Below, piece after piece: positions 8,827-62,991 of a stretch of DNA of 64,000 nt (position 1 is its first letter; every line of letters begins with the position of its first letter). Under the pieces are notes generated by a model. The model made no database searches. It was not told the origin of the DNA and was given only the letters and a program-made list of their open reading frames with translations. The stretch is from NCBI GenBank assembly GCA_964550955.1, contig CAZKAF010000001.1, positions 7,993 through 71,992 on the forward strand. Direction: 5' to 3'. Position numbers and translations under genes: made by a program. The DNA is from an uncultured Candidatus Saccharibacteria bacterium. GTDB lineage: Bacteria; Patescibacteriota; Minisyncoccia; Phycocordibacterales; CAIZLB01.

Positions 8827-10041
8827 ATGATCAAAAATAATATCGTTTATAGTGAATATTGCAATTATCGATTTAAGCTAAAACGTGCCGAAGGAAGCTA
8901 TCTTTGGGATGAAAATGGCAGGAAATATATTGATTTTACCTCTGGCTGGAACGTGACAAATTTGGGCTGGAATGACCCCGAAATTAATACTGCGATAAAA
9001 GAGCAGGTAGATAAAAACGTGTTCGCGCCTTTGTGGTGTTCTGACGAAATTCAAGAGAAATACGCTCAGAGACTGACAGAGTCCTTGCCCGAACCGCTCG
9101 ATACGTGCATAAAGACAACGGGCGGAACTGAAGCCGTCGAAGTGTCAATTAAAGTTGCTCGGGCTGCCACAGGACGAAAAAAAATTATTGGTTTTAAAAA
9201 CAGTTACCATGGGCAATTGTTCGCCTCGATGGCACTTGGTTTTACAGACAATTTGGTTGAGAAAATTTTACCATTAGTGCCTGAATTTATTCAGATCGAT
9301 TATCCCAGAGACAATGGTGATAAAGAAGTATTGAATAATTTTCTCATGGACCTTGAAAAAAGGATATCAAATCACGATGTCGCGGCAATCGTTACCGAGG
9401 CAAACATGATTACTGGCTGGGGGTCTGCATTCGTCGCGCCGATTGGGTATCTCAAGGCGGTAAGGGATCTTGTTTCAAAATACGGGACCCTGCTGATCGT
9501 TGATGAAGTGGGAACTGGTTTTTCAAGAACTGGAAAATTATTTGCTATTGAGCATGAGAACGTTGTTCCAGATATGATATGTCTCGCTAAAGGCATATCG
9601 AATGGCGGCGGTGCTTTAGGGGCAGTCGTTGGCAGTTTTGACCTTATTAATAATGTGATTGGAGTCACAAACATCATATCTACTTTTGGATGGGTTCCAA
9701 CGGCTTGTGCGGCAGCGCTTAAAACACTCGAGATTCATCAAAGGGACAAGGTGTGGGAGATGGCTGATTCTAAAGGGAGATATCTTTTGTCTGAATTAAA
9801 ATCTAAGCTGGCTAACAATCCAAAGGTTGTCGACGTAAGGGGTGTGGGCATGGAGATTGGAATTGAAATTCCGGTTGATGCGACCCGGTATAATAATATT
9901 ATAGATTTTGCTGCCAAAGAGGGGTTACATTTGACTGGGGATACAGAAAGCGTGATTCAGCTTATGCCGCCTCTCACTATTTCCAAAGAAGATATTGAAA
10001 AAGGCATTGATATATTAGTTAGGACGCTTTCTTCCTGTTAA
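8827..10041 (+). CDS. Class-III PLP-dependent aminotransferase (ArgD/GabT-like), first gene of an AT-rich operon.
   Basis: LIVDEVGTGFSRTGKLFA is the class-III aminotransferase PLP-region signature, alongside the ...GGTEAVE... motif. The ORF opens at 8716 but the likely start is ATG 8827 (MIKNNIV...). Confidence 0.8.
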   Translation: MIKNNIVYSEYCNYRFKLKRAEGSYLWDENGRKYIDFTSGWNVTNLGWNDPEINTAIKEQVDKNVFAPLWCSDEIQEKYAQRLTESLPEPLDTCIKTTGGTEAVEVSIKVARAATGRKKIIGFKNSYHGQLFASMALGFTDNLVEKILPLVPEFIQIDYPRDNGDKEVLNNFLMDLEKRISNHDVAAIVTEANMITGWGSAFVAPIGYLKAVRDLVSKYGTLLIVDEVGTGFSRTGKLFAIEHENVVPDMICLAKGISNGGGALGAVVGSFDLINNVIGVTNIISTFGWVPTACAAALKTLEIHQRDKVWEMADSKGRYLLSELKSKLANNPKVVDVRGVGMEIGIEIPVDATRYNNIIDFAAKEGLHLTGDTESVIQLMPPLTISKEDIEKGIDILVRTLSSC

Positions 10042-10055
10042 TAAAATATTATATT

Positions 10056-11558
10056 ATGCCAAAAAAATTGACGCCGAGACGGAACAAGCAGAGTGGATTT
10101 TTTGATTCTTTGGCAAAGAAGAGGAGTGAGCATGTCTTTGAATGCTCGGATATTAAAACCCTAAAAGGTTTTCTTAAGAGCCATAAAGAGGTTCGTTATC
10201 CTAAAAAGTTTGCGACGACGTTATATATGTGTGGTAGAAAAAAGATTTCTGGGAAACCTAAGCCACTATCTCACGCTGCTATTAAGGTGCGTTTTTATCA
10301 TGACAAACCGATGCATAGGTTTTTTATACCTAATAAAGATGCGGCGTGTATCACCGAGATCAAGACCCGTCCCAAGGATGACTGGGGGAGTACTGTTCGC
10401 CAGAAAGCTCGCTTTGGAGTTGATAGCATTATGAGTTATCGAGACCTAGAAAACGTGTCTGAAGAAGTGCTTTCGGGAAAAAAGATTAAGAAAATCAATA
10501 ATGAGACTGTATCGTTATCCAGGTGTCTTAAAAAGATAGCGAATGAATACAATCTTGTGACGTTTGAGGCTGTAGCGGCGACATCTTACAGAAGGAGGCA
10601 TTTTGACGCGGATAATCATCGAATTACAGTTGATAGTGACATAAAGTATTATCTTACCGCTACCCACGATAGGGATACATTGTTTTCTTTAGCTAGGCGC
10701 AGACCGGGGTTTGTGCTTGAGGTAAAGGTTGAGCATGTTGGTAAAAATCTTAAGAATGACGATGGCGACCATCTTCTAAAGGAGTTAGGGAAAATACCTG
10801 GTTTAATCGCCGAACCAAACAGAAAAGGAGCAGACCTGTTAGACCTTGTGTTACAAAAAGAACATCTTTTCCATGAGCCAGAACTTAAAGCGAAGTCCTC
10901 ATCAGAGTGGCTCGTCACGGAAAGAGAGATGAAGCTGGACGCAGATAACGATTTACGCGTGCAACTTGGTGGTATACGTTTCCCAGAAAATATCGCCGTT
11001 GGGATGATAAGGAAAGACAAAAGTTATCAAAGAATATACAGTCATGGTTCTAATATTGTTTTTTCAATGCAATATAATAAAGACAGCCCACCCTCAAAAA
11101 GGGTTATCAAATATAAGATGAATCTGAAGAGTTCAAGTTCAAAAATTAGCGTCAGACAGGAGACAGTCGAGCGTTATAGTAAAAAGAGGATATCTGAAAT
11201 ATTAGGAAATCCTGTCGATGATAAGTCGACCTTGATAACGTCCTATTTCTTGAGAGACAGAGCTATCTTGTCTGTGTATCTTAGCGACACAGGGAATGTT
11301 TTTGATATTTGCGTGGATGAAGTAAACTTTATTGGTAAGAAAAAAAGTATACCATTACACCAGCTTGAAATTGAGTTTGTTGGAGTAATCGGTGACAAGG
11401 ACGGTAAAAGTTTTATCAAAAACAATGTCAGGACGATTGAGTCCGATTTTATGGTAATTAGGAAAATCATCATGCATGAATATGCTAGATTAGGCATCGC
11501 TCTGCGAGACTCTCATATTACGAAAGCGATTTGGGCGATGAACCAAGTTTCAAGATAA
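10056..11558 (+). CDS. Hypothetical Lys-rich protein. The N-terminal half has a weak CYTH/VTC-like triphosphate-tunnel pattern.
   Basis: Possible tunnel-fold motifs: KVRFY...ACITEIKTRPKD...VRQKARF, YRRRHFDADNHRITVDSDIKYY, FVLEVKVEH and C-terminal LEIEFVG. The assignment is from memory of family patterns, not a search. Confidence 0.45.
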   Translation: MPKKLTPRRNKQSGFFDSLAKKRSEHVFECSDIKTLKGFLKSHKEVRYPKKFATTLYMCGRKKISGKPKPLSHAAIKVRFYHDKPMHRFFIPNKDAACITEIKTRPKDDWGSTVRQKARFGVDSIMSYRDLENVSEEVLSGKKIKKINNETVSLSRCLKKIANEYNLVTFEAVAATSYRRRHFDADNHRITVDSDIKYYLTATHDRDTLFSLARRRPGFVLEVKVEHVGKNLKNDDGDHLLKELGKIPGLIAEPNRKGADLLDLVLQKEHLFHEPELKAKSSSEWLVTEREMKLDADNDLRVQLGGIRFPENIAVGMIRKDKSYQRIYSHGSNIVFSMQYNKDSPPSKRVIKYKMNLKSSSSKISVRQETVERYSKKRISEILGNPVDDKSTLITSYFLRDRAILSVYLSDTGNVFDICVDEVNFIGKKKSIPLHQLEIEFVGVIGDKDGKSFIKNNVRTIESDFMVIRKIIMHEYARLGIALRDSHITKAIWAMNQVSR

Positions 11559-11563
11559 ATATT

Positions 11564-12718
11564 ATGGATACCCGTAAGAACATAAAATATATTCATGATT
11601 TAATCAAGGAATCTAGGAATAAAATTATCGATATCTTGACCGATATCGAGCCGTATTCGATAGCCGAGTTTGAGATTGATTCAGCATGCACCACATTATC
11701 GGAAATCTTGAATAATGTCGACCAAGTCAGGATTGACGTCAAAAGCATCGCGGTATATTTACCCGTCAACCTGCCCCTTTATTCATTGATTCTATACGGT
11801 ATTGTTCCGAGCCTACAAGCTGAAAATGTTTATGTGCGTCCACCAGTAGAGATAGGCGACATTACGAAAAAGATACGTGACTCATTCTTCAAAACAGTCA
11901 AGAACGTGCATGTTGTGGGTTTACCGAGAAGAGCATTTGGAGATGGGTTTACAGCCTGTGCAGACGTCGTAATATTTACAGGTAGGTACGATCCAGCTCT
12001 TGACCTTATAGAAAAATATAATCCGAAACTTTTTATTTATAATGGATCTGGGGTTAATCCAATTATTGTTGCTAAAGGGGCGGACCTGTCATTAGCAGTT
12101 GAAAAAGTGATTCACGCCAGAATCTTTAACGGTGGTCAAGACTGCTGTGCTCCAGATGCCATTTTTGTGGAGGATTCGATTAAGGCAGAGTTTATGTTTT
12201 TGCTGAAGAATCAGGTTGAAAAAATTAATGTCGGCAGTTATAAAGACCCAGATGTGACAGTAGGGAAGATCTTGGACAAGAAATATATTGCATCAGCAAA
12301 GGCTTTCCTCGAGGATAAAGCAGATATGATTGTTTTTGGCGGAAAGATAGATGAAGAGGGCGGGGTTATCTACCCTACCATTATTGATGAGGTAGACCAT
12401 CAAAGATACGATGATTTTCAAGAGCTGTACGCACCCATTTTCAATATTTTAACATTCAAGACACATGATGAGGTCGAGAGGGTACTTAACTCTAGAGAGT
12501 ATCAAGATTTCGCCATGTGCTACTCCATTTTTGGTAATATTAAAATCAATGTCGCCAACACCATTTTGCTTAAAAATCAGACTCTGCTCGATGTCGAAGG
12601 TGGAAATATACCATTTGGCGGTTATGGAAAAAAATCGAGTTTTGTCAGAAAAAATGGCAAAACTTTTCCAAGACCAATCCTTATCCCCTGGGAAATAAAG
12701 ACGATCGCGGAGGCTTAA
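11564..12718 (+). CDS. Aldehyde-dehydrogenase-superfamily protein, short form (ProA/acylating-ALDH-like, N-terminally truncated relative to canonical ALDH).
   Basis: Catalytic-Cys motif NGGQDCCAPD, then GGKIDEEGGVIYPTII and PFGGYGKKSSF (the ALDH PFGG motif). It is about 385 aa versus about 480 for typical ALDH. The ORF opens at 11531 and overlaps the previous gene; ATG 11564 is the likely start. Confidence 0.6.
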   Translation: MDTRKNIKYIHDLIKESRNKIIDILTDIEPYSIAEFEIDSACTTLSEILNNVDQVRIDVKSIAVYLPVNLPLYSLILYGIVPSLQAENVYVRPPVEIGDITKKIRDSFFKTVKNVHVVGLPRRAFGDGFTACADVVIFTGRYDPALDLIEKYNPKLFIYNGSGVNPIIVAKGADLSLAVEKVIHARIFNGGQDCCAPDAIFVEDSIKAEFMFLLKNQVEKINVGSYKDPDVTVGKILDKKYIASAKAFLEDKADMIVFGGKIDEEGGVIYPTIIDEVDHQRYDDFQELYAPIFNILTFKTHDEVERVLNSREYQDFAMCYSIFGNIKINVANTILLKNQTLLDVEGGNIPFGGYGKKSSFVRKNGKTFPRPILIPWEIKTIAEA

Positions 12719-12761
12719 TAATAATATTTTAGGGGTTGTTATAATACGCACATGTATTATA

Positions 12762-14480
12762 GTGATATCAAATATTATGAAAAATGGTGAGATAATTAAG
12801 GAACTACTAATTCGTGCCGCCGAGAGTCAAAATCTTCAAATGAGGGAGGTGTTGGTCATGTTCTCAAACGACCTGTCAAATGGTGACTATTCTTCCAATA
12901 TCGCCCTAGTGGCTGCAAAGGAGATTAAGACTTCGCCTAAGGCTTTAGCTGATAAATTGGTGGCAGCTTTGTATAAAAATGGCCTGCCTAAAGAAGTAAA
13001 AAAGGTAGAAGTAGCCGGCATCGGTTTTATTAATTTCTACCTGTCTTCACGTTATATGGATGAACAGATCAAGGGTATAGTCGATCTGCCGGAAAAATAT
13101 GGCGCATCTTTGATAAATGCCGGCAAGAAAATTCTCGTTGAGCATTCAAGCCCTAACCTTTTCAAACCATTTCACATAGGCCATCTAATGAATAACACTA
13201 TTGGAGAATCAATAGCTAGGCTCGCTCAATTCTCTGGCGCAGAAGTGACAAAAATATCTTACCCTTCGGATATATCGCTCGGGATTGGAAAGGCAATATG
13301 GGCACTTAACCAAGAAGATGCGATAAGGCTTGATTCTTTTGACAGCCTTGAAGAGAAAGTCGCCTTTTTGGGCGAATGTTATGTGCGGGGTACAAATGCT
13401 TTTATTGATAATGTAAACGTTCAACAGCAGGTTAGAGATATAACAAAAAAACTTTATGACAAGGTTCCAGGTGCAGAATTTGACATGTTTGAAAAGTGTA
13501 AAGAATTGAACCTGTCGTATTTCAAGTCTATCATCGAAAAACTTGGTTCAAGTTTCGACTCTTTTATTTTTGAAAGTGAGGCTGGTGTAGAAGGCGAAAA
13601 GATTGTTTCAGAAAATATTGGCAAGGTTTTTGAGAACAGCAACGGGGCAATCATATATAGGGGTGAGGATGAGGGTTTGCATACTAGGGTATTTGTTAAT
13701 CGCGAGGGCTATCCCACATATGAATCAAAGGATATAGGGTTACTTTCATTGAAGTTCAAGCGCTACAACCCAGATATATCAATTTTTGTTACGGATAATG
13801 AACAAAGAGCATATTTTGAGGTTGTTTCTTCTGCCGCAAGTAAGATTGACAAAGATTGGAGCGATAAGACGATACATCTTACTCATGGAAGAATGACATT
13901 TAAAGGCAAAAAAATGTCATCGCGTCTAGGTGGCGTTCCCCTTGCGACGACCATAATAGATGCCGTATCTGAAGAAGTGAAAAGCCGTAAGGAAGATCTG
14001 GATAATAGTAGTGCTGAGGCGATATCAATTGGTGCGGTGAAGTTTACTGTCCTTAGGGTTATGGCAGGAAAAGACATAAATTTTGACCCAGATACGTCAC
14101 TTTCTTTTGAGGGTGATTCGGGTCCATATCTTCAATATACCGCAGTAAGAGCGGCATCAATCCTTAAGAGGGCAAAAGAGGGGAATATGGTCAGTGAGAC
14201 TGTGAATTTTACTGAGGATAGAGATATCAGCAAGGTCGAAAGAATCGTCGTGCGTTTCCCGGAAGTTGTCGATCTGGCCATAAAGGAATGGTCGCCACAT
14301 CATTTGGTAACGTATCTTTTGGAGTTGGCGCAAGCCTTCAACGGTTGGTATGTAAATACAAAAGTATTAGATTCTTCAAATCCATCGATGCAAAATAACA
14401 TCATGTTAACATCGGCTGTATATACCGTAATCAAAAACGGTCTCAGGCTTCTGGGTATCCAAGTTCCTGCGAGTATGTAG
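12762..14480 (+). CDS. argS: Arginine--tRNA ligase
   Basis: HIGH region SSPNLFKPFHIGHLMNNTIGESIARL matches the ArgS pattern (SANPTGPLHVGH...GDSLAR). There is an N-terminal Arg_tRNA_synt_N-like segment, and the C-terminus ends ...PASM as ArgS proteins do. The gene lies inside the AT-rich segment. Confidence 0.85.
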   Translation: MISNIMKNGEIIKELLIRAAESQNLQMREVLVMFSNDLSNGDYSSNIALVAAKEIKTSPKALADKLVAALYKNGLPKEVKKVEVAGIGFINFYLSSRYMDEQIKGIVDLPEKYGASLINAGKKILVEHSSPNLFKPFHIGHLMNNTIGESIARLAQFSGAEVTKISYPSDISLGIGKAIWALNQEDAIRLDSFDSLEEKVAFLGECYVRGTNAFIDNVNVQQQVRDITKKLYDKVPGAEFDMFEKCKELNLSYFKSIIEKLGSSFDSFIFESEAGVEGEKIVSENIGKVFENSNGAIIYRGEDEGLHTRVFVNREGYPTYESKDIGLLSLKFKRYNPDISIFVTDNEQRAYFEVVSSAASKIDKDWSDKTIHLTHGRMTFKGKKMSSRLGGVPLATTIIDAVSEEVKSRKEDLDNSSAEAISIGAVKFTVLRVMAGKDINFDPDTSLSFEGDSGPYLQYTAVRAASILKRAKEGNMVSETVNFTEDRDISKVERIVVRFPEVVDLAIKEWSPHHLVTYLLELAQAFNGWYVNTKVLDSSNPSMQNNIMLTSAVYTVIKNGLRLLGIQVPASM

Positions 14481-18695: not shown

Positions 18696-18815
18696 TCTGG
18701 CGGAAGAGCGAAAAGCCTTGAAAGCCTGGGCGGCCGCACGGCATTTGCCCGGCAAAAGCTGGTTATTTAGACAGAATGTCGGTTTTTCCATCTTTCGTGG
18801 TATAAAGTACACATT

Positions 18816-21537: not shown

Positions 21538-21810
21538 ATGGACCAAGAAATCCAGGAGCTCAATGAAAAAATAGACGAGCTGCGAGTCATCGTGGAAGAG
21601 AATACCCGCATGACGGCCAGCTTGTATCGGCGGGCTCGTTTTTCCATGCTCATATCCGGAATCAAATGGTTCATCATCATAGGAGCGGCGGTAGGAGCAT
21701 TCTACTACGTGCAGCCTGCCGTGGATTCTCTCATGCAGACATATTCCGCCATCACGGGCGCGGAAGGAGGCTCAAGCCCGAACTTCATGAATTTCTTCAA
21801 GTCTTTTTAG
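21538..21810 (+). CDS. Small hypothetical protein with one TM helix
   Basis: Coiled N-terminus then FIIIGAAVGAFYYV; 90 aa. Confidence 0.4.
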   Translation: MDQEIQELNEKIDELRVIVEENTRMTASLYRRARFSMLISGIKWFIIIGAAVGAFYYVQPAVDSLMQTYSAITGAEGGSSPNFMNFFKSF

Positions 21811-21851
21811 GTCTCATTTGATAGGTTGATAGAGTTCAGGTGAAATTGAAA

Positions 21852-21976
21852 AAATAAAATATGCCGACCGGAGATGCATAATAGTCTCAGTTGGCAGAGC
21901 GAGACAGAACGATGGTTTAAAAAACAATATGCCGACGAAAGATTTCACAGTCTCAGTTGGTAGAGCAAGGGCTCAA
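21852..21976 (+). repeat. Two tandem degenerate tRNA 5'-half-like units (about 60-65 nt each) immediately upstream of tRNA-Phe.
   Basis: Each unit is aaaa(a)a(c/t)aa-tatgccga(c)-[12-14 nt]-agtctcagttgg(c/t)agagc..., compared with tRNA-Phe gccgagatagctcagttggtagagca. The units lack an anticodon arm and T-arm. Confidence 0.6.
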
Positions 21977-21990
21977 TAAAAAAACAATAT

Positions 21991-22066
21991 GCCGAGATAG
22001 CTCAGTTGGTAGAGCATTTCCCTGAAGAGGAAGGGGTCGCCGGTTCGAATCCGGCTCTCGGCACCA
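21991..22066 (+). tRNA. tRNA-Phe(GAA)
   Basis: Acceptor GCCGAGA/TCTCGGC, D-arm GCTC-AGTTGGTA-GAGC, anticodon arm TTTCC-CTGAAGA-GGAAG (anticodon GAA), T-arm GCCGG-TTCGAAT-CCGGC and an encoded ACCA. Confidence 0.9.
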
Positions 22067-22069
22067 TGC

Positions 22070-22102
22070 AATACGCGCGCGGAATTCATCCGCGCGCGTA
22101 TT
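22070..22102 (+). terminator. GC-rich hairpin right after tRNA-Phe; terminator-like but with a weak T-tract.
   Basis: aatacgcgcgcgg-aattcat-ccgcgcgcgtatt, then aatttgag. Confidence 0.45.
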
Positions 22103-22270
22103 AATTTGAGAAGGCAAATAAGCCCTTTTTAAAGAAGGCTTTCCAGGGTCGAAAGACTTGACATATTATTTAGATATAGTATAATATACAAGACGATGCA
22201 TAGCGGTGTTGCTGTGGATGAAGAAGACAGGATGAACCTGTCTTCGAACTGAAACAGCCAGACAAAACAC

Positions 22271-23059
22271 ATGAATACACCAATGCCTACCGCTTCCTGC
22301 ATCGTCATCAACTCCCGTTCTCGGGAGTTGAAAACAACCCTGGCCATCGTCAAGATTGCCAGGCAAACTAAGGACCCATTCCAGCTTTCTCCGCTGGTTA
22401 TCCGGCACTCGCTGGAAATCAGCGCGGACTTCGAAACATTCAGGGAGAGATACCCTGATCTGCCCATAGTCGTCATCACAGACGGTTACCGGGCGGTGAC
22501 GTCGGAGGGGTTTGTCGAGTGGGCCGACGGCGGCTCGTTTGGCAAGCATGCTCTTATCGTTGGCGAAATGCCAATCGGAAAGAGCCTTCGGACTCTCTCC
22601 CGGAGGTCTTCTCGGGCAATCGTGTTCCCTCCGGGAACACCGATAAAAAAAGTCCAAACACCTTCCGGGTCAAACTGGGAGTTGGCTGGTCTGGCAAGGG
22701 CAGGGCTTCGACTGCTAGCGGATGAACAATTCTACGAAGCCTTCCTGGTCACGGGTCAATCTGACTGGGTGAAAGCATGGGGATTCGTTCATCCTGAAAC
22801 AGACTGGTCGTGGTCAGAACATGTTCAGCTCGACCACCAATCCGACCGCTGGTCGGACGAAGGCCTTGCGAAAGACCTTCTGGTGAAAGTCGGAAGGCGT
22901 GACAGCGAAGGCAAACAGGCCTTCATTGATCGGACCAAGCAGGAGACGAGTCCTGTGGGAGAAATCCTCGGGGAAGAAAGGTTCCAGGAAGTCCTGGAAC
23001 AGCTCGTTCCAGAGCTAAGCCAAGAGGAGGCTGCCTTATCCGACGACGAACGTTGGTAG
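22271..23059 (+). CDS. Hypothetical protein (262 aa)
   Basis: Longest ORF in the region with host-like GC and no recognisable motif. It is antisense to the shorter 22166..22657 ORF. Confidence 0.45.
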   Translation: MNTPMPTASCIVINSRSRELKTTLAIVKIARQTKDPFQLSPLVIRHSLEISADFETFRERYPDLPIVVITDGYRAVTSEGFVEWADGGSFGKHALIVGEMPIGKSLRTLSRRSSRAIVFPPGTPIKKVQTPSGSNWELAGLARAGLRLLADEQFYEAFLVTGQSDWVKAWGFVHPETDWSWSEHVQLDHQSDRWSDEGLAKDLLVKVGRRDSEGKQAFIDRTKQETSPVGEILGEERFQEVLEQLVPELSQEEAALSDDERW

Positions 23060-23328: not shown

Positions 23329-23643
23329 ATGCAAGATAAAGATACAGAGTTTCTCGAATTTATTGTTAAATCGCTTGTCGAAAACGTAGATGCCGTGAAG
23401 ACTAGCAGGCGCGTTGATGATATGGGGGTTTTCGTTGAGTTGACTGTTGATCCGGTGGACATGGGCAAGATTATCGGCCGGAACGGCCATACTGCGCAGG
23501 CTATCCGAACTATCATGAAGGCGTTCGGAAAGAAGCATCAGGCAAACATCTCCATCCAGATCAAGGAGCCTGTAGGCGGAACTCGCGACGGCGCTTCGAC
23601 GGTCAAGACAGTGGACGAAGCGATTGCGGATCTGAAAATGTAA
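23329..23643 (+). CDS. KH-domain RNA-binding protein (YlqC/UPF0109-like)
   Basis: KIIGRNGHTAQAIRTIMKAF is the KH GxxG loop region. About 100 aa and directly upstream of trmD, as in the rpsP-ylqC-rimM-trmD neighbourhood. Confidence 0.75.
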   Translation: MQDKDTEFLEFIVKSLVENVDAVKTSRRVDDMGVFVELTVDPVDMGKIIGRNGHTAQAIRTIMKAFGKKHQANISIQIKEPVGGTRDGASTVKTVDEAIADLKM

Positions 23644-23774: not shown

Positions 23775-24476
23775 ATGAATTTCCATATCGTCACATTGTT
23801 TCCAGAGTCTTTGGCCTCGTATCTTGGCGAGTCTATCGTTGCGCGCGCGCAAGCTGAAAAACTGATATCCGTCTCGGCATATAACCCGCGCGACTTCGTC
23901 AAGCCGACCAGGACTCAAGCGAAGAACGAGAAGCCATATCTTCGGGTGGACGACAGGCCGTATGGCGGCGGTCCGGGCATGGTCATGCAGGCCGAGCCTG
24001 TGGCGAAGGCCGTCGACAAGGCGCTGGCAAAGGCGCAAAAGAGGAAATCGTTCAAAAAAGCGCTCATCGTTTTCTTAAGTCCTGCCGGCACGCAGTTCAC
24101 GAACGCCCTTGCGACGGATTATGTCAAAAAATATTCTGACGTCGTCATCGTTTGCGGAAGATACGAAGGGATTGATGCGCGCATTAAAAAGATTTTCAAA
24201 ACAGTCGATATAACCGTCGGCCCGTTCGTCACAACGGGCGGGGAGTTGCCGGCGATGCTAATGATAGATGTCATGGCACGTCAGATTCCGGGAGTCTTGG
24301 GAAAGTTCGAGAGCAGGGAGGAATCAAGGGTGTCTTCAAGCGACGTGTATACGCGCCCCGAGGTTTTGTCGTACAAGGGCAAAAAGTACAAGGTTCCGCC
24401 GGTGCTTCTTTCGGGCGACCATAAAAAGATCGATGAATGGAGGGAATCGATTGGGGGTGTTGGAAATTCTGCATAA
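23775..24476 (+). CDS. trmD: tRNA (guanine37-N1)-methyltransferase
   Basis: MNFHIVTLFPE..., then RVDDRPYGGGPGMVM, GRYEGIDAR and TTGGELPAM match TrmD SPOUT motifs. The ORF opens at 23751. Confidence 0.9.
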   Translation: MNFHIVTLFPESLASYLGESIVARAQAEKLISVSAYNPRDFVKPTRTQAKNEKPYLRVDDRPYGGGPGMVMQAEPVAKAVDKALAKAQKRKSFKKALIVFLSPAGTQFTNALATDYVKKYSDVVIVCGRYEGIDARIKKIFKTVDITVGPFVTTGGELPAMLMIDVMARQIPGVLGKFESREESRVSSSDVYTRPEVLSYKGKKYKVPPVLLSGDHKKIDEWRESIGGVGNSA

Positions 24477-24520
24477 GTGAAAAGTTAGAGTGCGGTACGC
24501 ATGTTATAATATAATTCATT

Positions 24521-24799
24521 ATGCGTGACATGCTGAAAACCATAGCTTGCGTTCTCGCACTTAGCTTTGCGAGCGCTCTGATTTTTGGTGTGGTCTCTTA
24601 TCCCGAAGAGTTCTCAATTTACGGTATTGGTTTTAAGATGAAGCCATTTATCATTGCGGCTTTTGTATTGGCGCTAGGTCTCTACCGGAATAATTTGAAT
24701 CCTCACGGTTATCGATTTCTTACACCTAAAGATCTGGCCATTTATCTTCTTACTACGGTAGCTTTAGTTGCGGCATATTTTGTAACAGCACTTCTTTAA
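24521..24799 (+). CDS. Small membrane protein (92 aa, 3 predicted TM helices) in an AT-rich insert.
   Basis: Hydrophobic helices (IACVLALSFASALIFGVV, FIIAAFVLALGLY, LLTTVALVAAYFVTALL); AT-rich codon usage. Confidence 0.4.
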   Translation: MRDMLKTIACVLALSFASALIFGVVSYPEEFSIYGIGFKMKPFIIAAFVLALGLYRNNLNPHGYRFLTPKDLAIYLLTTVALVAAYFVTALL

Positions 24800-24841
24800 T
24801 GATGTTGGGATTGGATTATGATAGAATCGAGCTATTAAATC

Positions 24842-25234
24842 ATGACTAATCTAACTTTGAAACAACCGGCTATTCATGTATTTATCGATGCTTCTAATTT
24901 ATGGCAAGCACAAAAGGCAAAAGGTAGGATGTTTGATTATGAAAAGCTTAAAAAGGTCCTTAAGGACAAATTTGCAGCATCAAAGATTGAATTTTTCTAC
25001 TATACTGCATATCCGGCAGAAGGTACGCGCGACCGCAGCATGGATGGTAAGCACAAATTTTATACATATCTAAAAAAGAATCTTGGTTTCACTGTAATTA
25101 AAAAAGTGTTCATCTTTTCTTCTAAAAATAATGTATCACAAGAGTTGAGAACGGGTGCTGACAAGTATTTTGACGTACTCCTTTTGGAAGAAGATGTTTG
25201 GGGACGGGCGCTTGAACGAAAGCAAGCCAGATAA
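24842..25234 (+). CDS. NYN-domain (LabA-like) putative ribonuclease, possibly C-terminally truncated or frameshifted.
   Basis: IHVFIDASNLW matches the NYN N-terminal motif (vFiDgaNl). It is only 130 aa, and an adjacent out-of-frame ORF (25155..25373) continues. Confidence 0.5.
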   Translation: MTNLTLKQPAIHVFIDASNLWQAQKAKGRMFDYEKLKKVLKDKFAASKIEFFYYTAYPAEGTRDRSMDGKHKFYTYLKKNLGFTVIKKVFIFSSKNNVSQELRTGADKYFDVLLLEEDVWGRALERKQAR

Positions 25235-25523
25235 ATTCAATCAAAGCGCACTTAGTATGGTTTTAAAAAGTAAGCAAAAAAGCAGCCCTCCTTGCGGAGG
25301 GCTGCCCTTGGATGTAGTACCCTTTCAGTTATGGAAACCGAAAGACTTGCCCAGTATACGGCTAGCCGGCTAAGAAATCAAGCCTGTGTACAGTTAACCA
25401 TATGAGAATTGAATTAATCGGAAAATCTGCAAAACAGTCCACCGTCAAGTGGAAAACCCGCCAAGACACAGAAATAAGGCTTTGAACCCCCTAGGTTGTA
25501 CCCAGGATGTCAACAGGCTAGCG

Positions 25524-25552
25524 TTGACACCTGTGGATAAATCGATTATCAT
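25524..25552 (+). promoter_or_regulatory. Near-consensus sigma70-type promoter (TTGACA-17 nt-TATCAT) in the long rpoB upstream region.
   Basis: ttgaca at 25524-25529, a 17-nt spacer, tatcat at 25547-25552. It is about 340 nt upstream of the rpoB ATG. Confidence 0.35.
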
Positions 25553-25891
25553 AAAGTTCCTGCGTTAGACGATTGAGTTATACGGGCCGGCTCTTTCGCG
25601 GACTTCATTCTTTTCTCATAAAACTTTGCCTATTTAGTTGGTCCGTCCGATGCCTTTATGCAAATTTTATGCTCGAAGTTTGAAGCAAACCCCACTACTA
25701 TTACCGGGAAACTAATAGTATTTTTAATATTTAGATTATTCTAAAAACTAACGCATCTGCATCGGTTTCAGAAATTTTGTTCGTTACCGTATATCCATAT
25801 ACGGCTCGATCGCAAAATCTCTTCCAACCGGCACATCTGCATTTAGTTTTTAAAAATAATCTTGTTCCACCTAACTAGACGCTAAAACCTT

Positions 25892-28800
25892 ATGCGCCAG
25901 AAAAAGTATTTTTCACGGTTTAAGGAGCCGCTCGCGCCGCTCCCGAACCTAGTTGAAGGACAGATTGAATCTTATAAATGGTTACTCGACAAAGGATTGA
26001 AGGAAGTTTTCAGCGAATTTGTCTCTATTAAGGACTATTCGGACAAGAAGTTCGAATTGGACTTTACCGGATTTGAAATTGTCGCTCCTAAGTATGATGA
26101 ATTTCATGCAAAGGAAAACAAGATGAACTACGAAGGCGGTCTCAAGGTGATGGTCAAGCTCAAAAACAAGATTCTCGGTTCTGTCAAAGAACAGGAGGTT
26201 TTTATGGCTGACTTCCCGATGATGACGGATCACGGCACATTTATCATCAACGGCATCGAGCGACTCATCGTTCCGCAGATCATTCGATCTTACGGGGCGT
26301 TTTTCACGTCTCAGGAAGTCAAAGGCAAGAACTACTTCGGCGCGAAGATCATTCCTGCGCGAGGCGCATGGATTGAAATCGAAAGCGATGCCGACGGCGC
26401 GGTTTACGTGCGAATCGACAGAAAGCGAAAGTTCCCGGTAACTTCGCTTCTTCGAGCTTTCGGCGTTGAAACTGATACGGACATGAAGGAGCTCTTCAAA
26501 GATAGCCAGTACGGAAAGCAGTATATCGAAGCTACGCTCGCCAAGGATCATGCGCGAACCAAGGAAGAGGCGTACATCGAAATCCACAAGCGACTTCGAG
26601 ACGGAGACCTGGCAACGGCGGAAAACGCGCGGGATTTCTTCAATGCGCTCATGAGCGCTGAACGATATGACCTTTCAAAGGTAGGACGATTCAGATTCAA
26701 CCAGCGATTCGGCAAGGACATGGGTGAGAAGGCCCTCTCACAGATGACTCTTACTGTCGACGACTTGGCATCTACAATAAAGATGCTTATCGAGCTTAAC
26801 CACAACCCCCTTGCTATCAAGGACGACATCGACCATCTCGGTTCGAGGCGGGTTCGATTCGTGGGCGAGCTTCTCCAGCAGAAAATCCGAGTCGGCATGA
26901 CGCAGATCAAGCGAAACATTCAGAACCGAATGTCCACTATTGATACGGATGCGAATCTCCCGGTTCAATTCATTTCTCCTCGACCTCTCCAGGCCCGAAT
27001 CAAGGAATTCTTCACGACGAACCAATTGTCGCAATTCATGTCGCAGGAAAACATCCTTGCGGAAATCGAGCATCTTCGAAGAATCTCAGCTCTTGGTCAA
27101 GGCGGTCTTACGCGAGAACGAGCGGGCATCGAAGTTCGAGACGTGCACCAGTCGCATTACGGGCGAATCTGTCCGATTCATACTCCTGAAGGCCAGAACA
27201 TCGGCCTCGTGCTCCAGCTTGCAACATATGCTCGAGTCAACCATTTCGGCATGATCGAGACTCCGTATGCAAAAGTTAAGGACGGAAAAATCACTAAAGA
27301 AATCGTCTACTTGAACGCGCTGGAAGAAGCTGGTCATAAGATTGCCCACGCTGCCACTAAGTACAATGACAAGGGCGTTATCGAAGAAGATATCGTGGAA
27401 GTTCGAGTCGACGGCGAGCCGATTCTCATCAGCAAGGACGAAGTGGACTATATCGACGTCGCGCCGGAACAGGCATTCTCGATCTCAACATCGATGATTC
27501 CGTTCTTGAACCACGACGATGCCAACCGAGCGCTCATGGGTTCAAACATGCAGAAACAGGCGACTCCTTGCATCGTTCCTGAAGCGCCTTTGGTTGCGAC
27601 AGGCATCGAAGAGAAAGCTGCTGAAGATACGGGGCGAGTTATCCTTGCTCCTGAAGAGGGAACTGTTACATATGTAGATGCCAAGAAAATCGTGCTTAAG
27701 GGCGCGAAGAAGGAGCATGAATACAGGCTGGCGACATATAACCGAACGAACCAGTTCACGGCTTCGCATCAGCGACCGACTGTTTCTTTGAATCAGAAAG
27801 TTAAGCGAGGCGATGTGCTTGCTGACACTTCTACATCTGTAGATGGTCAAATGGCTCTTGGTCAGAACTGTCTCGTTGCCTTCATGGCATGGTCAGGCGC
27901 GAACTATGAAGATGCCATCATTCTTTCTGAAAGACTTGTTAAGGACTCCAAGTTCACGACGGTTCATATTGAAGAATTCATCATCAACGTTCGAGACACG
28001 AAGCTTGGTCCGGAAGTCACGACTCACGACATTCCAAACGTGGGCGAAAACCGGCTCAAGAATCTCGACGTGGACGGCATCATCCGAGTAGGCGCTGAAG
28101 TTCGACCTGGCGATATCATCGTAGGTAAAATTACTCCAAAGACTGAAACTCAGCTTACTCCGGAAGAACGACTCCTTCGATCAATCTTCGGTGAGAAATC
28201 ACGAGACGTGAAGGACACTTCAAAGCGACTTGAAAACGGAAAGAAAGGACGAGTTATCGGCGTTAAAATCTTCTCGCGAGAGAAAGGCGACAAGCTCGAC
28301 TCAGGAATCATCAAGCGAATCCACGTTGAGGTCGCGGTTCTTCGAAACATCTCAGTGGGCGACAAGCTTGCTGGACGACACGGAAACAAGGGTGTCATCT
28401 CGCGAATCCTTCCTGTTGAAGACATGCCATTCATGGAAGACGGAACTCCGGTTGACGTCATCCTGACTCCGCTCGGCGTTCCTTCTCGAATGAACCTCGG
28501 ACAGATTCTCGAGCTCCACCTCGGCCTTGCTGCCAAGACGCTCAACTATCAGGCGATCGTTCCTCCATTTGCGGGCGCGACTGTCGATGAGGTCAAGAAA
28601 GAGCTTGTTACGGCCGGATTCAACGAAAGCGGAAAGATGAAGCTCTTCGACGGGCGAACGGGCGAAAAGTTCGAGCAGGACGTCGCGGTCGGATACATGT
28701 ATATCCTCAAGCTTCACCACATGGTGGACGACAAGATTCACATGCGATCCATCGGTCCGTACTCTCTCATTACTCAGCAGCCGCTTGGAGGCAAGGCTCA

Positions 28801-57997: not shown

Positions 57998-58072
57998 ATT
58001 GGGTACCACGCGGCGGATTTAAGCCAGCATTCAAGCTTCAATTTTGAATTTTGGCCGCAATTGCCGCGTCAT

Positions 58073-58143
58073 TGCGGGATCGTCTAATGGTAGGACTGCG
58101 GATTTTGGTTCCGCCTATCTAGGTTCGAGTCCTAGTCCCGCAG
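58073..58143 (+). tRNA. tRNA-Gln(TTG)
   Basis: Acceptor TGCGGGA/TCCCGCA (a U1:A72 pair as in bacterial tRNA-Gln), D-arm GTCT-AATGGTA-GGAC, anticodon arm GCGGA-TTTTGGT-TCCGC (anticodon TTG), T-arm CTAGG-TTCGAGT-CCTAG, discriminator G, no encoded CCA. Confidence 0.8.
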
Positions 58144-58230
58144 CAACTTAGTTTTTCGTATCTAGCGACCTAGAGGGGTCAAAATACGTTAATTCCTAAA
58201 AACCCTTGTTTGTGGGATAATTGAGTCATT

Positions 58231-59454
58231 ATGAATCAGGCTCAAAAGAAAGAAAAATTCTATTTTTATAAAGGGAATATTAATGTTCTCGATAAGTTAG
58301 AAGATAAAACTAAAGAAAACATTCTCGCTCAGATTCAAAAAGAAATCTTACAGATTTTTGATGTAAAGAATTTATCTTTTTTACTTGGATCGGGCTGCTC
58401 ATCCTTTGTCAAAGAATCCGAGCAGATCGGGATTCCTACCATGGAACCTTTAGCAAAATTATTTTATGCGACACTTAATGCAGGCGATAAGGATGTTTTA
58501 AGGGATATTGTAAAGATAGATATCTCAATTGCTCCTTTTAATAACAATCTGGAAAGTTTTTTAGAAGTTTTGTTTAGCTTCAATTTTATTTATGACGTCC
58601 AGGGTGATAAAGCGCTTAAGCAAAAAATCCAGTCTTTGATTGATAAAACTAAAGAATTCATTCTTGAGAAATGTATTAACAAAGCAAATATAGCTCATAC
58701 TGATGTTATAGATTTATACAAGTTGTTTTATAAAAAACTTGTATATAGAAATAATAGCTTGTCAAAAGTTAATATTTTTACGACTAACTATGATTTGTAT
58801 TCAGAAAAGGCTTTGGACCAGCTCAGTATTTTATATAGTAATGGTTTTTCAGGAAATATAGAGAGATATTTCAATCCCACTACTTTTAACTATGCTTTCG
58901 CCGAACAGATGGAATTGAGTTCTAATAAATGGAATGTGATAGATAATTTTGTTTACCTATACAAACTTCATGGATCAGTAAATTGGGTAGAGACGGACAC
59001 AAAAGGAAAAATATTTAATATTCAAGAAATACAGGATCCAACAGAGAAAATCGAAGCATCGATGATTTACCCGACTCCTATGAAGCAGACTTCTAGTTTT
59101 GGTTCCCCGTACTCTGACTTATTTAGGGAATTTCAAAAAAAGTTAATGCAAGAAAAAAATATACTTGTAACAGCGGGGTACAGTTTTAGTGATCAACACG
59201 TTAATAATTTGATCTATCAAGCTTTAACAATCCCCACATTTCGTATTGTTATATTTCAAGATCCTGCAAAAGAAAGTATCAAAAGACTTCTAGATCTCAA
59301 TGATCCTCGTATATGGATTATTGGAGGGGAAATTGATTCAGAAAATATCCATTACTTTAGCTACATTGTTAATAACTTGTTACCTGATATTCGTCAGCAA
59401 AAAATTGAAAGTAGCATAGAGCAAGCTATAAAGAGTCTTATAGATAAAAAATAA
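58231..59454 (+). CDS. SIR2-family (SIR2_2-like) NAD+-dependent/NADase domain protein
   Basis: Rossmann Gly motif LLGSGCS, IFTTNYD and LYKLHGSVNW match the SIR2_2 defense-associated family signatures (TTNYD; HG with catalytic His). Confidence 0.75.
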   Translation: MNQAQKKEKFYFYKGNINVLDKLEDKTKENILAQIQKEILQIFDVKNLSFLLGSGCSSFVKESEQIGIPTMEPLAKLFYATLNAGDKDVLRDIVKIDISIAPFNNNLESFLEVLFSFNFIYDVQGDKALKQKIQSLIDKTKEFILEKCINKANIAHTDVIDLYKLFYKKLVYRNNSLSKVNIFTTNYDLYSEKALDQLSILYSNGFSGNIERYFNPTTFNYAFAEQMELSSNKWNVIDNFVYLYKLHGSVNWVETDTKGKIFNIQEIQDPTEKIEASMIYPTPMKQTSSFGSPYSDLFREFQKKLMQEKNILVTAGYSFSDQHVNNLIYQALTIPTFRIVIFQDPAKESIKRLLDLNDPRIWIIGGEIDSENIHYFSYIVNNLLPDIRQQKIESSIEQAIKSLIDKK

Positions 59455-59459
59455 CTCAA

Positions 59460-61487: not shown

Positions 61488-61492
61488 TTGAT

Positions 61493-62815: not shown

Positions 62816-62991
62816 ACCAACACAAGTACCGTAAAGACCTTTTCAAAGCTACCTAATACTACAACACGGAGCAGAAGGTTGAACAAGTCAACTACACATT
62901 TTTTAATAATGAAGCTAGATTTGTCAGTATGTTGTGTAATTCAAACAATCTATATGTAGAGGCTAATTTCCTATATAATAGGCTTAACATT

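What the first reader, a model, noticed from the sequence alone, without database searches (positions are those of the whole stretch)
21852..22066. Tandem degenerate tRNA 5'-half-like repeats upstream of tRNA-Phe
Two ~60-nt units precede the intact tRNA-Phe, each with the same A-rich leader plus tatgccga. Each reproduces the tRNA's acceptor 5' strand and D-arm (agtctcagttggtagagc), carries a 12-14-nt insert and lacks the anticodon and T arms. This looks like serial partial duplication of the tRNA 5' region, for example scars from repeated integration or excision at this tRNA, or promoter duplication. Alternatively it is an unusual split or permuted arrangement. A GC-rich hairpin and a hypothetical gene follow the tRNA.
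Basis: seen in the sequence. Interest (0 to 1): 0.55.

Follow-up and report, generated by a model that had tools for sequence, protein, structure and literature searches.

The report
Conserved tRNA-Phe-derived leader hairpin repeats
Just upstream of the phenylalanine tRNA gene of an uncultured Paceibacterota (CPR) bacterium lie two repeats copied long ago from the start of that tRNA gene, altered so each folds back on itself into a hairpin; related bacteria keep 0-3 copies, so they are not random scars, but their function is unproven.

Summary
Two units (68 and 60 nt) at 21851-21978 precede tRNA-Phe(GAA) at 21991-22066. Each has the tRNA's A-rich leader, GCCGA and a D-arm-like block. Neither is a tRNA by ARAGORN or Rfam.

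The integration-scar and split-tRNA readings are not supported.
- The same kind of unit sits at the orthologous locus in 7 of 12 related Paceibacterota lineages, in 1-3 copies. One further lineage has a decayed relic and four have none.
- Copy number differs between near-identical strains.
- All ten distinct units share three changes relative to the tRNA: G6 to C, an 8-14 nt insertion, and one extra pyrimidine.
- Together these changes create a two-tier hairpin (GCCGAC/GUUGGY plus GAGRU/GYCUC) of -8 to -15 kcal/mol. It is always stronger on the + strand.
- A covariance model separates units (55-68 bits) from the tRNA's own 5' end (15-28 bits) and finds nothing else.

In silico, unmodified duplicates would capture the tRNA's acceptor 3' strand; the real units do not.

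Best reading: an ancient tandem duplication of leader plus tRNA nt 1-26, kept as self-locking hairpins in the pre-tRNA-Phe leader. Covariation is not statistically significant and there is no transcript evidence, so function stays inferred. The feature is moderately interesting: a new variant of tRNA-derived repeats.

The parts
21538..21810 (+). Small ORF (90 aa; coiled-coil plus one hydrophobic helix; conserved GAFYYVQP). It marks the locus: in every related locus fetched here it lies directly upstream of tRNA-Phe.
   Evidence: 170 homologues; context
21810..21836 (+). Decayed D-arm-like relics at the 5' edge of the array (GTCTCATTTGATAG, then GTTGATAGAG).
   Evidence: 12 of 14 matches to GTCTCAGTTGGTAG, shuffle p=0.004. 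Clearer relics sit at the same place in L205, L206 and L208.
21826..21855 (+). The only sigma-70-like promoter match upstream of the array (TTGATA-18-AAAAAT, with TG before the -10). The predicted start is at about 21862-21863, the first base of the U1 hairpin.
   Evidence: 9 of 12 matches. This is a consensus match only and is not conserved in relatives.
21851..21862 (+). U1 leader (AAAATAAAATAT), with U at -1 and A at -2 as before the tRNA.
21863..21895 (+). U1 hairpin. Outer stem GCCGAC/GUUGGC, inner stem GAGAU/GUCUC, 8-nt loop.
   Evidence: -14.2 kcal/mol on +, -7.9 on -; covariance model 59.6 bits
21896..21918 (+). U1 3' flank (AGAGCG..., a D-stem-3'-like stretch followed by a non-conserved tail).
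21919..21930 (+). U2 leader (AAAAAACAATAT), identical to the tRNA leader.
21931..21961 (+). U2 hairpin. Outer stem GCCGAC/GUUGGU, inner stem AGAU(U)/(A)GUCU.
   Evidence: -9.0 kcal/mol on +, -3.6 on -; covariance model 59.8 bits
21962..21978 (+). U2 3' flank (AGAGCAAGGGCTCAAT).
21979..21990 (+). Leader of the genuine tRNA (AAAAAACAATAT).
21991..22066 (+). tRNA-Phe(GAA), with CCA encoded.
22070..22102 (+). GC-rich perfect 14-bp hairpin after the tRNA, a probable terminator with a weak T tract.
   Evidence: I1
22158..23059 (+). Lineage-specific insertion: a perfect TTGACA-16-TATAAT promoter (22158-22185) plus a 262-aa ORF (22271-23059) of unknown family. It is not part of the repeat system.
   Evidence: Absent from all related loci, where khpA follows the tRNA. 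khpA in the window is at 23329-23643.

Best explanation
The units belong to a conserved family of tRNA-Phe-derived leader repeats, specific to this locus in a clade of Paceibacterota.

Origin (inferred from anatomy): a tandem duplication of the segment 'short A/U-rich leader + nt 1-26 of tRNA-Phe'. Unequal crossing-over since then gives 0-3 copies, strain-level copy-number differences, two paralogous unit types, and decayed edge copies.

Shown: every unit carries the same three derived changes.
- G6 to C.
- An 8-14 nt insertion that supplies GAGRU plus a loop.
- One extra pyrimidine before CUC.

These changes convert the pseudo-5'-half into a self-contained two-tier hairpin on the + strand. 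It has a 6-bp outer stem, GCCGAC/GUUGGY, built from the 'acceptor' and 'D-loop' pieces. It has a 3-5-bp inner stem, and about 12 stacked layers in all.

Inferred: no terminator separates the upstream ORF from the tRNA, so the units are transcribed as the 5' leader of pre-tRNA-Phe and discarded when RNase P cuts at tRNA +1. The hairpin sequesters the tRNA-like strands. That stops them competing with the genuine 5' half for the acceptor 3' strand, and it gives the precursor a stable structured leader.

That leader most likely acts as a stability or punctuation element between the upstream mRNA and the tRNA, by providing a protective stem-loop at the ends that processing creates. The anatomy, conservation and insulation are well supported. 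The positive function is a guess.
For: The hairpin:
- Units are present and chance is excluded.
- They are not tRNAs.
- The hairpin is predicted for all 10 distinct units at -8.1 to -15.4 kcal/mol. It is always more stable on the + strand than on the - strand. The tRNA's own nt 1-20 fold to only -2.6 kcal/mol.
- 94.5% of 110 pair cells are standard pairs, against 13-41% when the partner is slid by 1-3 columns. One-sided changes at the closing pair keep it paired (G.U to G-C or A-U).

Conservation:
- Units sit at the orthologous site in L002 (2), L197/198 (1), L202 (1), L205/207 (1), L206 (1), L208/209 (3), L210 (2) and L193 (at least 1).
- The flanking small-ORF protein is only 45-60% identical across these genomes.
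- 21 of 47 alignment columns are invariant, including the unit-specific C6.
- The covariance model scores units at 55-68 bits and the tRNA 5' end at 15-28 bits. It finds nothing else in the window or in 46 loci.

Array dynamics:
- L208/L209 have 3 units and L210 has 2, with the same flanking protein.
- L205 and L206 differ by 0.6% in the small ORF but by 33% in the unit region.
- Edge relics are present.

Insulation: unmodified copies of leader + nt 1-26 capture the acceptor 3' strand with P=0.94. With the real units that probability is 0.00, and the tRNA acceptor stem forms with P=1.0.

Transcription context: no terminator-like site was found between the small ORF and the tRNA, and no consensus promoter lies immediately before the tRNA copy.
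Against: - No transcript or processing data exist.
- Covariation is not above shuffled controls. Columns are mostly invariant, and the one variable pair reads AU 3, GC 3, GU 2, mismatch 2.
- Four of twelve related lineages lack units entirely (L001, L194, L195, L201) and one has only a relic (L203), so the element is dispensable.
- Identity of the flanks to the tRNA could be kept by gene conversion rather than selection.
- The thermodynamic misfolding test ignores co-transcriptional folding.
- In the window the minimum-free-energy fold of the two-unit leader pairs U1 with U2 rather than forming two local hairpins.
Confidence: 0.5

Rival explanations
1. The array is a functionless tandem repeat. 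It persists through expansion and contraction plus gene conversion from the tRNA gene. Selection acts only to keep each copy 'locked' in a hairpin so it cannot disturb tRNA folding.
For: - Distribution is patchy and copy-number changes are frequent.
- Decay increases with distance from the tRNA: window U2 is closer to the tRNA than U1, which is closer than the relics; in L208, U3/U2 are closer than U1, which is closer than the relic.
- Leaders are near-identical within a genome but differ between genomes.
- Covariation is not significant.
- The insulation effect alone explains the unit-specific changes.
Against: - A harmless decayed copy, as in L203, is always reachable. Deletion between direct repeats is also easy.
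- Even so, intact units with the same derived features persist in lineages whose flanking protein is only about 45-60% identical, in small CPR genomes.
- The tracts identical to the tRNA (9-17 and 16 nt) are short for efficient conversion.
- Unit-specific positions (C6, GAG, the extra Y) have no template in the tRNA.
Confidence: 0.3
2. The array is a tandem promoter array. Each duplication copied the tRNA promoter, so several promoters drive tRNA-Phe, and the tRNA-like pieces are passengers.
For: - The leaders are A/T-rich and contain -10-like hexamers.
- A motif TTGAAAA(A)TAAAAT recurs before repeats in four genomes.
- In the window a TTGATA-18-AAAAAT(+TG) site lies before U1.
Against: - The scans found no sigma-70-like site before U2 or before the tRNA copy in the window.
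- They found none before the units or the tRNA in L002, L202 or L208, although the same scans find strong promoters for the downstream gene.
- The repeat period can be as short as 43 nt (L206), with an 8-nt leader, which leaves no room for a complete promoter.
- The -10-like hexamers adjoining +1 would start transcription inside the tRNA.
Confidence: 0.1
3. The units are scars of repeated site-specific integration or excision at tRNA-Phe.
For: tRNA-Phe is an integration hotspot in this clade. L201, L203, L205 and L206 carry a 15-18 nt duplicate of the tRNA 3' end downstream.
Against: - Those real scars are copies of the 3' end and lie downstream.
- The units are 5' end plus leader, 43-77 nt apart, with nothing between them.
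- There is no integrase nearby and no copy of the tRNA 3' end elsewhere in the window.
- The units carry conserved non-tRNA features shared across genomes.
Confidence: 0.03
4. The units are halves of a split or permuted tRNA, or degenerate tRNA pseudogenes of another isoacceptor.
For: They contain an acceptor-like 5' strand and a D-arm-like block.
Against: - ARAGORN and the Rfam tRNA model give no hit even at E<=10.
- There is no anticodon-stem segment.
- No T-arm plus GTCGGC partner exists in the window.
- The 'acceptor' strand pairs with the 'D-loop' within the unit.
Confidence: 0.01

Closest known systems
Tandem repeats distal to E. coli tyrT that each contain the last ~19 nt of tRNA-Tyr (178-bp repeats; Egan & Landy 1978, Rossi et al. 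1981; recalled from my own knowledge, not retrieved)
   Same: Both are tandem units next to a bacterial tRNA gene. Each unit holds a partial copy of that tRNA, and both are thought to arise by duplication and unequal recombination.
   Different: The tyrT repeats copy the 3' end, lie downstream and are 178 bp long. The units here copy the 5' end plus the leader, lie upstream, are 43-77 nt long, are remodelled into hairpins, and are conserved across a clade.
Functional by-products of pre-tRNA spacers, such as the 3'ETS-leuZ sRNA sponge of E. coli (Lalaouna et al. 2015; own knowledge)
   Same: Both are non-tRNA segments of a tRNA precursor that are conserved and could have a role of their own after processing.
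   Different: 3'ETS-leuZ is a 3' trailer that is not derived from tRNA and acts by base-pairing with sRNAs. No target, stability or expression data exist for the units here.
t-elements of plant mitochondria (tRNA-like structures that define mRNA ends through RNase P and RNase Z; Forner et al. 2007, PMC1920247, found)
   Same: Both are tRNA-derived structures placed between an mRNA and a neighbouring gene that may punctuate a co-transcript.
   Different: t-elements keep an acceptor/T-arm-like fold that the processing enzymes recognise. The units here pair the acceptor strand with the D-loop, and they lack a T-loop and a CCA-like 3' end.
tRNA-gene fragments left as att-site direct repeats by integrases (Williams 2002; own knowledge)
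   Same: Both are partial tRNA copies near an intact tRNA gene.
   Different: att repeats are exact copies of the 3' part and flank a mobile element. The units meet none of these criteria.
Hairpin ('minihelix') model substrates of bacterial RNase P, such as pATSer and the 4.5S RNA precursor (own knowledge)
   Same: Both are helices of about 12 layers starting at +1. The units have the tRNA's own leader, U at -1 and A at the discriminator-like position.
   Different: The closing pair is mostly G.U rather than G-C. There is no RCCA 3' end (AGAG or AGGG instead) and no T-loop-like loop.

Membership tests
tRNA gene / tRNA pseudogene | Cloverleaf detectable by a tRNA covariance model or ARAGORN | tested here: not met
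   ARAGORN finds only 21991-22066 in this region. Rfam RF00005 gives no match to either unit, at the gathering score or at E<=10.
Split tRNA 5' half (Nanoarchaeum type) | The 5' half extends through the anticodon stem/loop and is followed by a sequence complementary to the leader of a 3' half | tested here: not met
   The units end after the D-arm-like block, and their tails are not conserved.
Split tRNA 5' half (Nanoarchaeum type) | A separate 3'-half gene with a T arm and a complementary acceptor strand (GTCGGC) | tested here: not met
   There is no such candidate in the 64-kb window. The rest of the genome could not be searched.
Integrase att-site scar | Exact direct repeat of the tRNA segment at the crossover (usually the 3' part) flanking a mobile element | tested here: not met
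   The repeats are 5' end plus leader, with a 43-77 nt period and nothing in between. There is no second copy of the tRNA 3' end in the window. The units differ from the tRNA in conserved ways.
Tandem sigma-70 promoters | A -35/-10 pair with 16-18 nt spacing in front of each repeat | tested here: inconclusive
   Only U1 has a 9/12 site. None was found at the arrays of L002, L202 or L208. The scan covers consensus promoters only.
Intrinsic terminator | GC-rich hairpin immediately followed by a U tract | tested here: not met
   On the + strand each hairpin is followed by AGAGC..., not by U's. On the - strand the hairpins are weaker. A-rich leaders that would give a T run are present only in the window, not in L002 or L197.
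RNase P minihelix-type substrate | Helix of about 12 bp from +1, with U at -1 | tested here: met
   6 bp, one mismatch layer and 3-5 bp. U at -1 and A at -2 are invariant in the 10 units.
RNase P minihelix-type substrate | G+1-C+72 closing pair, 3' RCCA, and a T-loop-like loop | tested here: not met
   The closing pair is G.U in 8 of 10 units. The 3' flank is AGAG or AGGG, and the loops are not UUCRANY.
RNase P minihelix-type substrate | Cleavage by RNase P at the 5' G | not testable with these tools
   This needs an in vitro assay or 5'-end mapping.
Conserved structured RNA element (cis-acting leader hairpin) | Base-pairing potential kept across homologues | tested here: met
   94.5% of cells are paired, against 13-41% for slid controls. 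All 10 units fold to the hairpin.
Conserved structured RNA element (cis-acting leader hairpin) | Statistically supported compensatory covariation | tested here: not met
   One pair has changes on both sides (AU 3, GC 3, GU 2, mismatch 2). The scores are reached by 227-247 of 500 shuffles.
Conserved structured RNA element (cis-acting leader hairpin) | Transcribed on the + strand as part of the pre-tRNA | not testable with these tools
   This is inferred only. There is no terminator between the small ORF and the tRNA. G.U pairs make the structure specific to the + strand.
Any Rfam family | Match to a curated covariance model | tested here: not met
   only tRNA matches, plus sub-threshold noise.

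The most novel reading that the evidence does not exclude
The repeats are a previously undescribed class of tRNA-derived cis-acting RNA: self-locked pseudo-5'-halves in the pre-tRNA-Phe leader. They would have an active role. One possibility is RNase P-cleaved punctuation that sets the ends and stability of the upstream mRNA and of the precursor. Another is a stable leader-derived small RNA or decoy that binds a factor recognising the 5' leader, acceptor or D region of tRNA-Phe. In either case copy number (0-3, varying between strains) would tune the effect.
Probability: 0.25. Interest if true: 0.65.

Novelty: new variant of a known kind. Interest (0 to 1): 0.45.

Why it matters
Partial tRNA copies beside tRNA genes are usually dismissed as integration scars or decaying pseudogenes. 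Here the copies were remodelled in one consistent way, into hairpins that neutralise their tRNA-like strands, and were then kept across a deep clade of genome-reduced CPR bacteria.

If they are functional, they add a tRNA-derived leader element to the short list of useful by-products of tRNA precursors. They also give a concrete handle on tRNA and mRNA co-transcript processing in organisms that cannot be cultured.

If they are not functional, they are a clean natural example of selection to insulate a duplicated RNA fragment so that it does not misfold its parent.

There is also a practical point: short-read contigs break inside the array, so it is under-represented in assemblies.

Tried and rejected
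- **Metagenome scan** with the D-arm 18-mer AGTCTCAGTTGGYAGAGC. All 116 hits were genuine tRNAs with an extra U in the D stem, or chance matches. None had GCCGAC upstream.
- **Viral-contig scan** with GCCGAC-N(8-22)-CTCAGTTGGYAGAG. It returned only chance GCCGAC sequences in front of real tRNAs.
- **Phage database BLAST** of the region. Only the tRNA itself matched.
- **Exact-protein look-ups** of the two flanking ORFs. Nothing was found, probably because gene starts were called differently. The 90-aa ORF did work.
- **Minus-strand terminator idea** (hairpin plus ATATTGTTTTTT). Rejected because the hairpins are weaker on the - strand and the T run is missing in L002 and L197.
- **D-loop TTGGTA as the -35 of the next unit's promoter.** Rejected because the spacing to any -10-like hexamer is 20-23 nt.
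- **integron attC-like site or DNA palindrome.** Rejected because the arm does not fit GTTRRRY and the stem needs G.U pairs.
- **T-box-like sensor** (UUC in the loop, UGGU). UUC occurs in only 2 of the 10 loops.
- **Covariation as proof of structure.** Tested and not significant.
- **Literature searches**. No description of such repeats was found.

Full report
**What is in the window**

The window is a chromosomal stretch of an uncultured CPR bacterium.
- It encodes LepA, an RlmI/RlmK-like RNA methyltransferase, TrmD, KhpA, RpoB and RpoC.
- The nearest genome records are Candidatus Paceibacterota MAGs.
- ARAGORN and Rfam find tRNA-Phe(GAA) at 21991-22066.

| Unit | Span | Composition |
|---|---|---|
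| U1 | 21851-21918 (68 nt) | A-rich leader, GCCGAC, 13-15 variable nt, AGTCTCAGTTGGCAGAGC, non-conserved tail |
| U2 | 21919-21978 (60 nt) | A-rich leader, GCCGAC, 13-15 variable nt, AGTCTCAGTTGGTAGAGC, non-conserved tail |

Chance does not explain them. The leader+GCCGA 17-mer and the D-arm-like 18-mer each occur three times in the window, only here, against 0.35 and 0.17 expected. An independent assembly from another sample (L196) has the identical sequence. Neither unit scores as a tRNA even at E<=10.

**The 'insert' makes a hairpin**

Folding each unit as RNA gives the same two-tier hairpin.
- The 'acceptor' GCCGAC pairs with the 'D-loop' GUUGGY.
- The inserted GAGAU pairs with GUCUC.

Relative to the tRNA, the units differ in three ways: G6 becomes C, 8-14 nt are inserted after position 6, and one pyrimidine is added before CUC. 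Each change adds base pairs.

| Sequence | Energy, + strand | Energy, - strand |
|---|---|---|
| Ten distinct units | -8.1 to -15.4 kcal/mol | always weaker |
| tRNA nt 1-20 | -2.6 kcal/mol | -4.0 kcal/mol (-4.2 for the L002 tRNA) |

The stems contain G.U pairs, which explains why the units' + strand is always the more stable.

**Relatives**

The methyltransferase located two syntenic genomes.
- L001 (78% identity) has no units: its tRNA starts 16 nt after the stop codon of the small ORF.
- L002 (69% identity) has two units with the same unit-specific features.

The 90-aa ORF at 21538-21810 lies directly upstream of tRNA-Phe in every related locus fetched here. A profile of it found 170 homologues, and I fetched the context of eleven of them.

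| Status | Loci |
|---|---|
| 1 unit | L197/L198, L202, L205/L207, L206 |
| 3 units | L208/L209 |
| 2 units | L210 |
| At least 1 unit (contig ends inside it) | L193 |
| Decayed relic only | L203/L204 |
| No units | L194, L195, L201 |

The small-ORF proteins of unit-bearing genomes are only 45-60% identical to one another, so the family is old. In the alignment of the ten distinct units, 21 of 47 columns are invariant. These include the unit-specific C6, U at -1 and A at -2.

A covariance model built from the units scores them at 55-68 bits and the tRNA's own 5' end at 15-28 bits. It hits nothing else in the window or in 46 loci. The units are therefore a discrete sequence class tied to this one locus.

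**Array dynamics**

- L208/L209 and L210 encode the same small-ORF protein but carry three and two units respectively.
- L205 and L206 differ by 0.6% in the small ORF and 0% in the tRNA, but by 33% in the unit region. Their single units belong to two different types.
  - One type has GAGAU with a UCAC-like loop, as in window U2.
  - The other has GAGGU with an rUAyA loop, as in L202.
  - I read this as differential retention of ancient paralogues.
- The leader before a unit and the leader before the tRNA are nearly identical within a genome: 24 nt in L197, 26 nt in L202, 12 nt in the window. Between genomes they differ.
- D-arm-like relics sit at the 5' edge of the arrays in L205, L206, L208 and, more decayed, at window 21810-21836.

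All of this is the behaviour of a tandem array evolving by unequal crossing-over and gene conversion. In L197 the repeat is exactly [24-nt leader + tRNA nt 1-26], apart from the remodelled centre. This points to a tandem duplication of that segment as the origin.

**How strong is the structural evidence**

On a structure-guided alignment, 94.5% of 110 pair cells are standard pairs, against 13-41% when partners are slid. The closing pair varies only by one-sided changes that keep it paired.

Covariation, however, is not above the shuffled controls. The only pair that varies on both sides reads AU 3, GC 3, GU 2 and mismatch 2. The hairpin is thus supported by conserved complementarity, by strand asymmetry, and by the fact that every derived change adds base pairs. 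It is not supported by compensatory statistics.

**What the hairpin does in silico**

I built a construct of two exact copies of leader + nt 1-26 in front of the tRNA. In it, the first copy takes the tRNA's acceptor 3' strand with probability 0.94.

In the real sequence the units take it with probability 0.00, and the genuine acceptor stem forms with probability 1.0. The remodelling therefore insulates the tRNA from its own partial duplicates. This is a thermodynamic calculation and ignores co-transcriptional folding.

**Transcription**

- No terminator-like site separates the small ORF from the tRNA.
- Consensus scans find strong promoters for the downstream gene. They find none at the arrays of L002, L202 or L208, and none in L001.
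- In the window one 9/12 site with an upstream TG (TTGATA-18-AAAAAT, 21826-21855) would start transcription at about the first base of U1.

I therefore infer, without direct evidence, that the units are part of the pre-tRNA-Phe leader, possibly of a co-transcript with the upstream genes.

**Explanations weighed**

- *Integration scars.* These are excluded by anatomy and conservation. Real 3'-end duplications of this tRNA do exist downstream in L201, L203, L205 and L206, and they look quite different.
- *Split or permuted tRNA.* Excluded.
- *Tandem promoters.* Unsupported but not excluded.
- *RNase P minihelix mimic.* This fits the helix of about 12 layers, U at -1 and the shared leader. It fails on the closing pair, the 3' end and the loop.

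The main open choice is between two readings.
- **Functional structured leader** (stability or punctuation element, or a leader-derived RNA). I give this about 0.5, including its anatomical core.
- **Functionless but constrained repeat**, kept by array dynamics and locked by selection against interference. I give this about 0.3.

The persistence of intact units in small CPR genomes over deep divergence, although loss is easy, tips me towards function. Their absence from a third of the lineages shows they are dispensable.

**Comparison with known systems**

The nearest precedents are:
- the tyrT distal repeats of E. coli, which are tandem units with the tRNA 3' end;
- functional spacer by-products such as 3'ETS-leuZ;
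- plant-mitochondrial t-elements (PMC1920247);
- att-site tRNA fragments.

None combines a 5'-end-plus-leader duplication, remodelling into a hairpin, and clade-wide conservation. No Rfam family matches, and full-text searches found no description. I classify the feature as a new variant of a known kind (tRNA-derived repeats and leader elements), with moderate interest.

**The downstream ORF**

The 262-aa ORF at 22271-23059 has a perfect TTGACA-16-TATAAT promoter. It has no Pfam, PHROG or NCBIfam match. It is absent from every related locus, where khpA follows the tRNA directly. It is a lineage-specific insertion unrelated to the repeats, and no att-type repeat flanks it.

Noticed in passing
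L201:1922-2070, L203:1738-1872, L205:1737-1864 (start also in L206); absent from the window: Downstream of tRNA-Phe and its terminator lies a 130-150-nt element. It begins with GCCGAG(A/G)G and a hairpin whose arms differ completely between loci yet stay complementary. It ends with a 15-18-nt copy of the tRNA-Phe 3' end. It could be a classical att-type scar with a conserved cargo, or a tRNA-like ncRNA. It has no Rfam match.
   Followed up: partly
window 22158-23059: A 262-aa ORF with a perfect consensus promoter and no family match in Pfam, PHROGs or NCBIfam is inserted between tRNA-Phe and khpA. It occurs only in this lineage and has no flanking att repeat.
   Followed up: partly
window 21538-21810 and homologues P0001-P0120: An uncharacterised family of small proteins (85-120 aa; N-terminal coiled coil, one hydrophobic helix, invariant GAFY..QP). 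It always sits between an RlmI-like methyltransferase and tRNA-Phe in Paceibacterota. 170 homologues were found and none is annotated.
   Followed up: partly
window 21846-21862; L202 1818-1843 and 1895-1920; L205 ~1595-1611; L208 ~1575-1596: A leader motif TTGAAAA(A)(A)TAAAAT recurs in front of at least one repeat or the tRNA in four distant genomes. It may be the real promoter or a processing signal. Its distance to +1 varies.
   Followed up: partly
L193, L196, L199, L200, L204 (contig ends): Short-read contigs repeatedly end inside the repeat array or in the first half of the tRNA. Such arrays are therefore likely to be under-represented or collapsed in metagenome assemblies.
   Followed up: no
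metagenome loci L077-L192: Many genuine tRNAs (Val-CAC, Thr-CGU, Ala-UGC and others) carry U8-A9-G-U-CUCAGUUGGUAGAGC. This is the same extra pyrimidine in the D stem that the units have.
   Followed up: no
window 10001-14000, 24001-26000 and 58001-64000: GC content is markedly lower here (0.39, 0.42 and 0.33-0.41) than the window's usual 0.50-0.57. These stretches may be acquired islands. tRNA-Gln at 58073-58144 borders the last one.
   Followed up: no
L002 4986-7199: Three extra genes lie between the methyltransferase and the small ORF. They include a 183-aa protein with a type IV pilin-like N-terminus and a 480-aa polytopic membrane protein. The window lacks them.
   Followed up: no
window 18780-18815: tRNA-Arg(CCU) has a -10-like TATAAA hexamer about 10 nt before its 5' end. 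tRNA leaders in this organism may therefore be very short.
   Followed up: no
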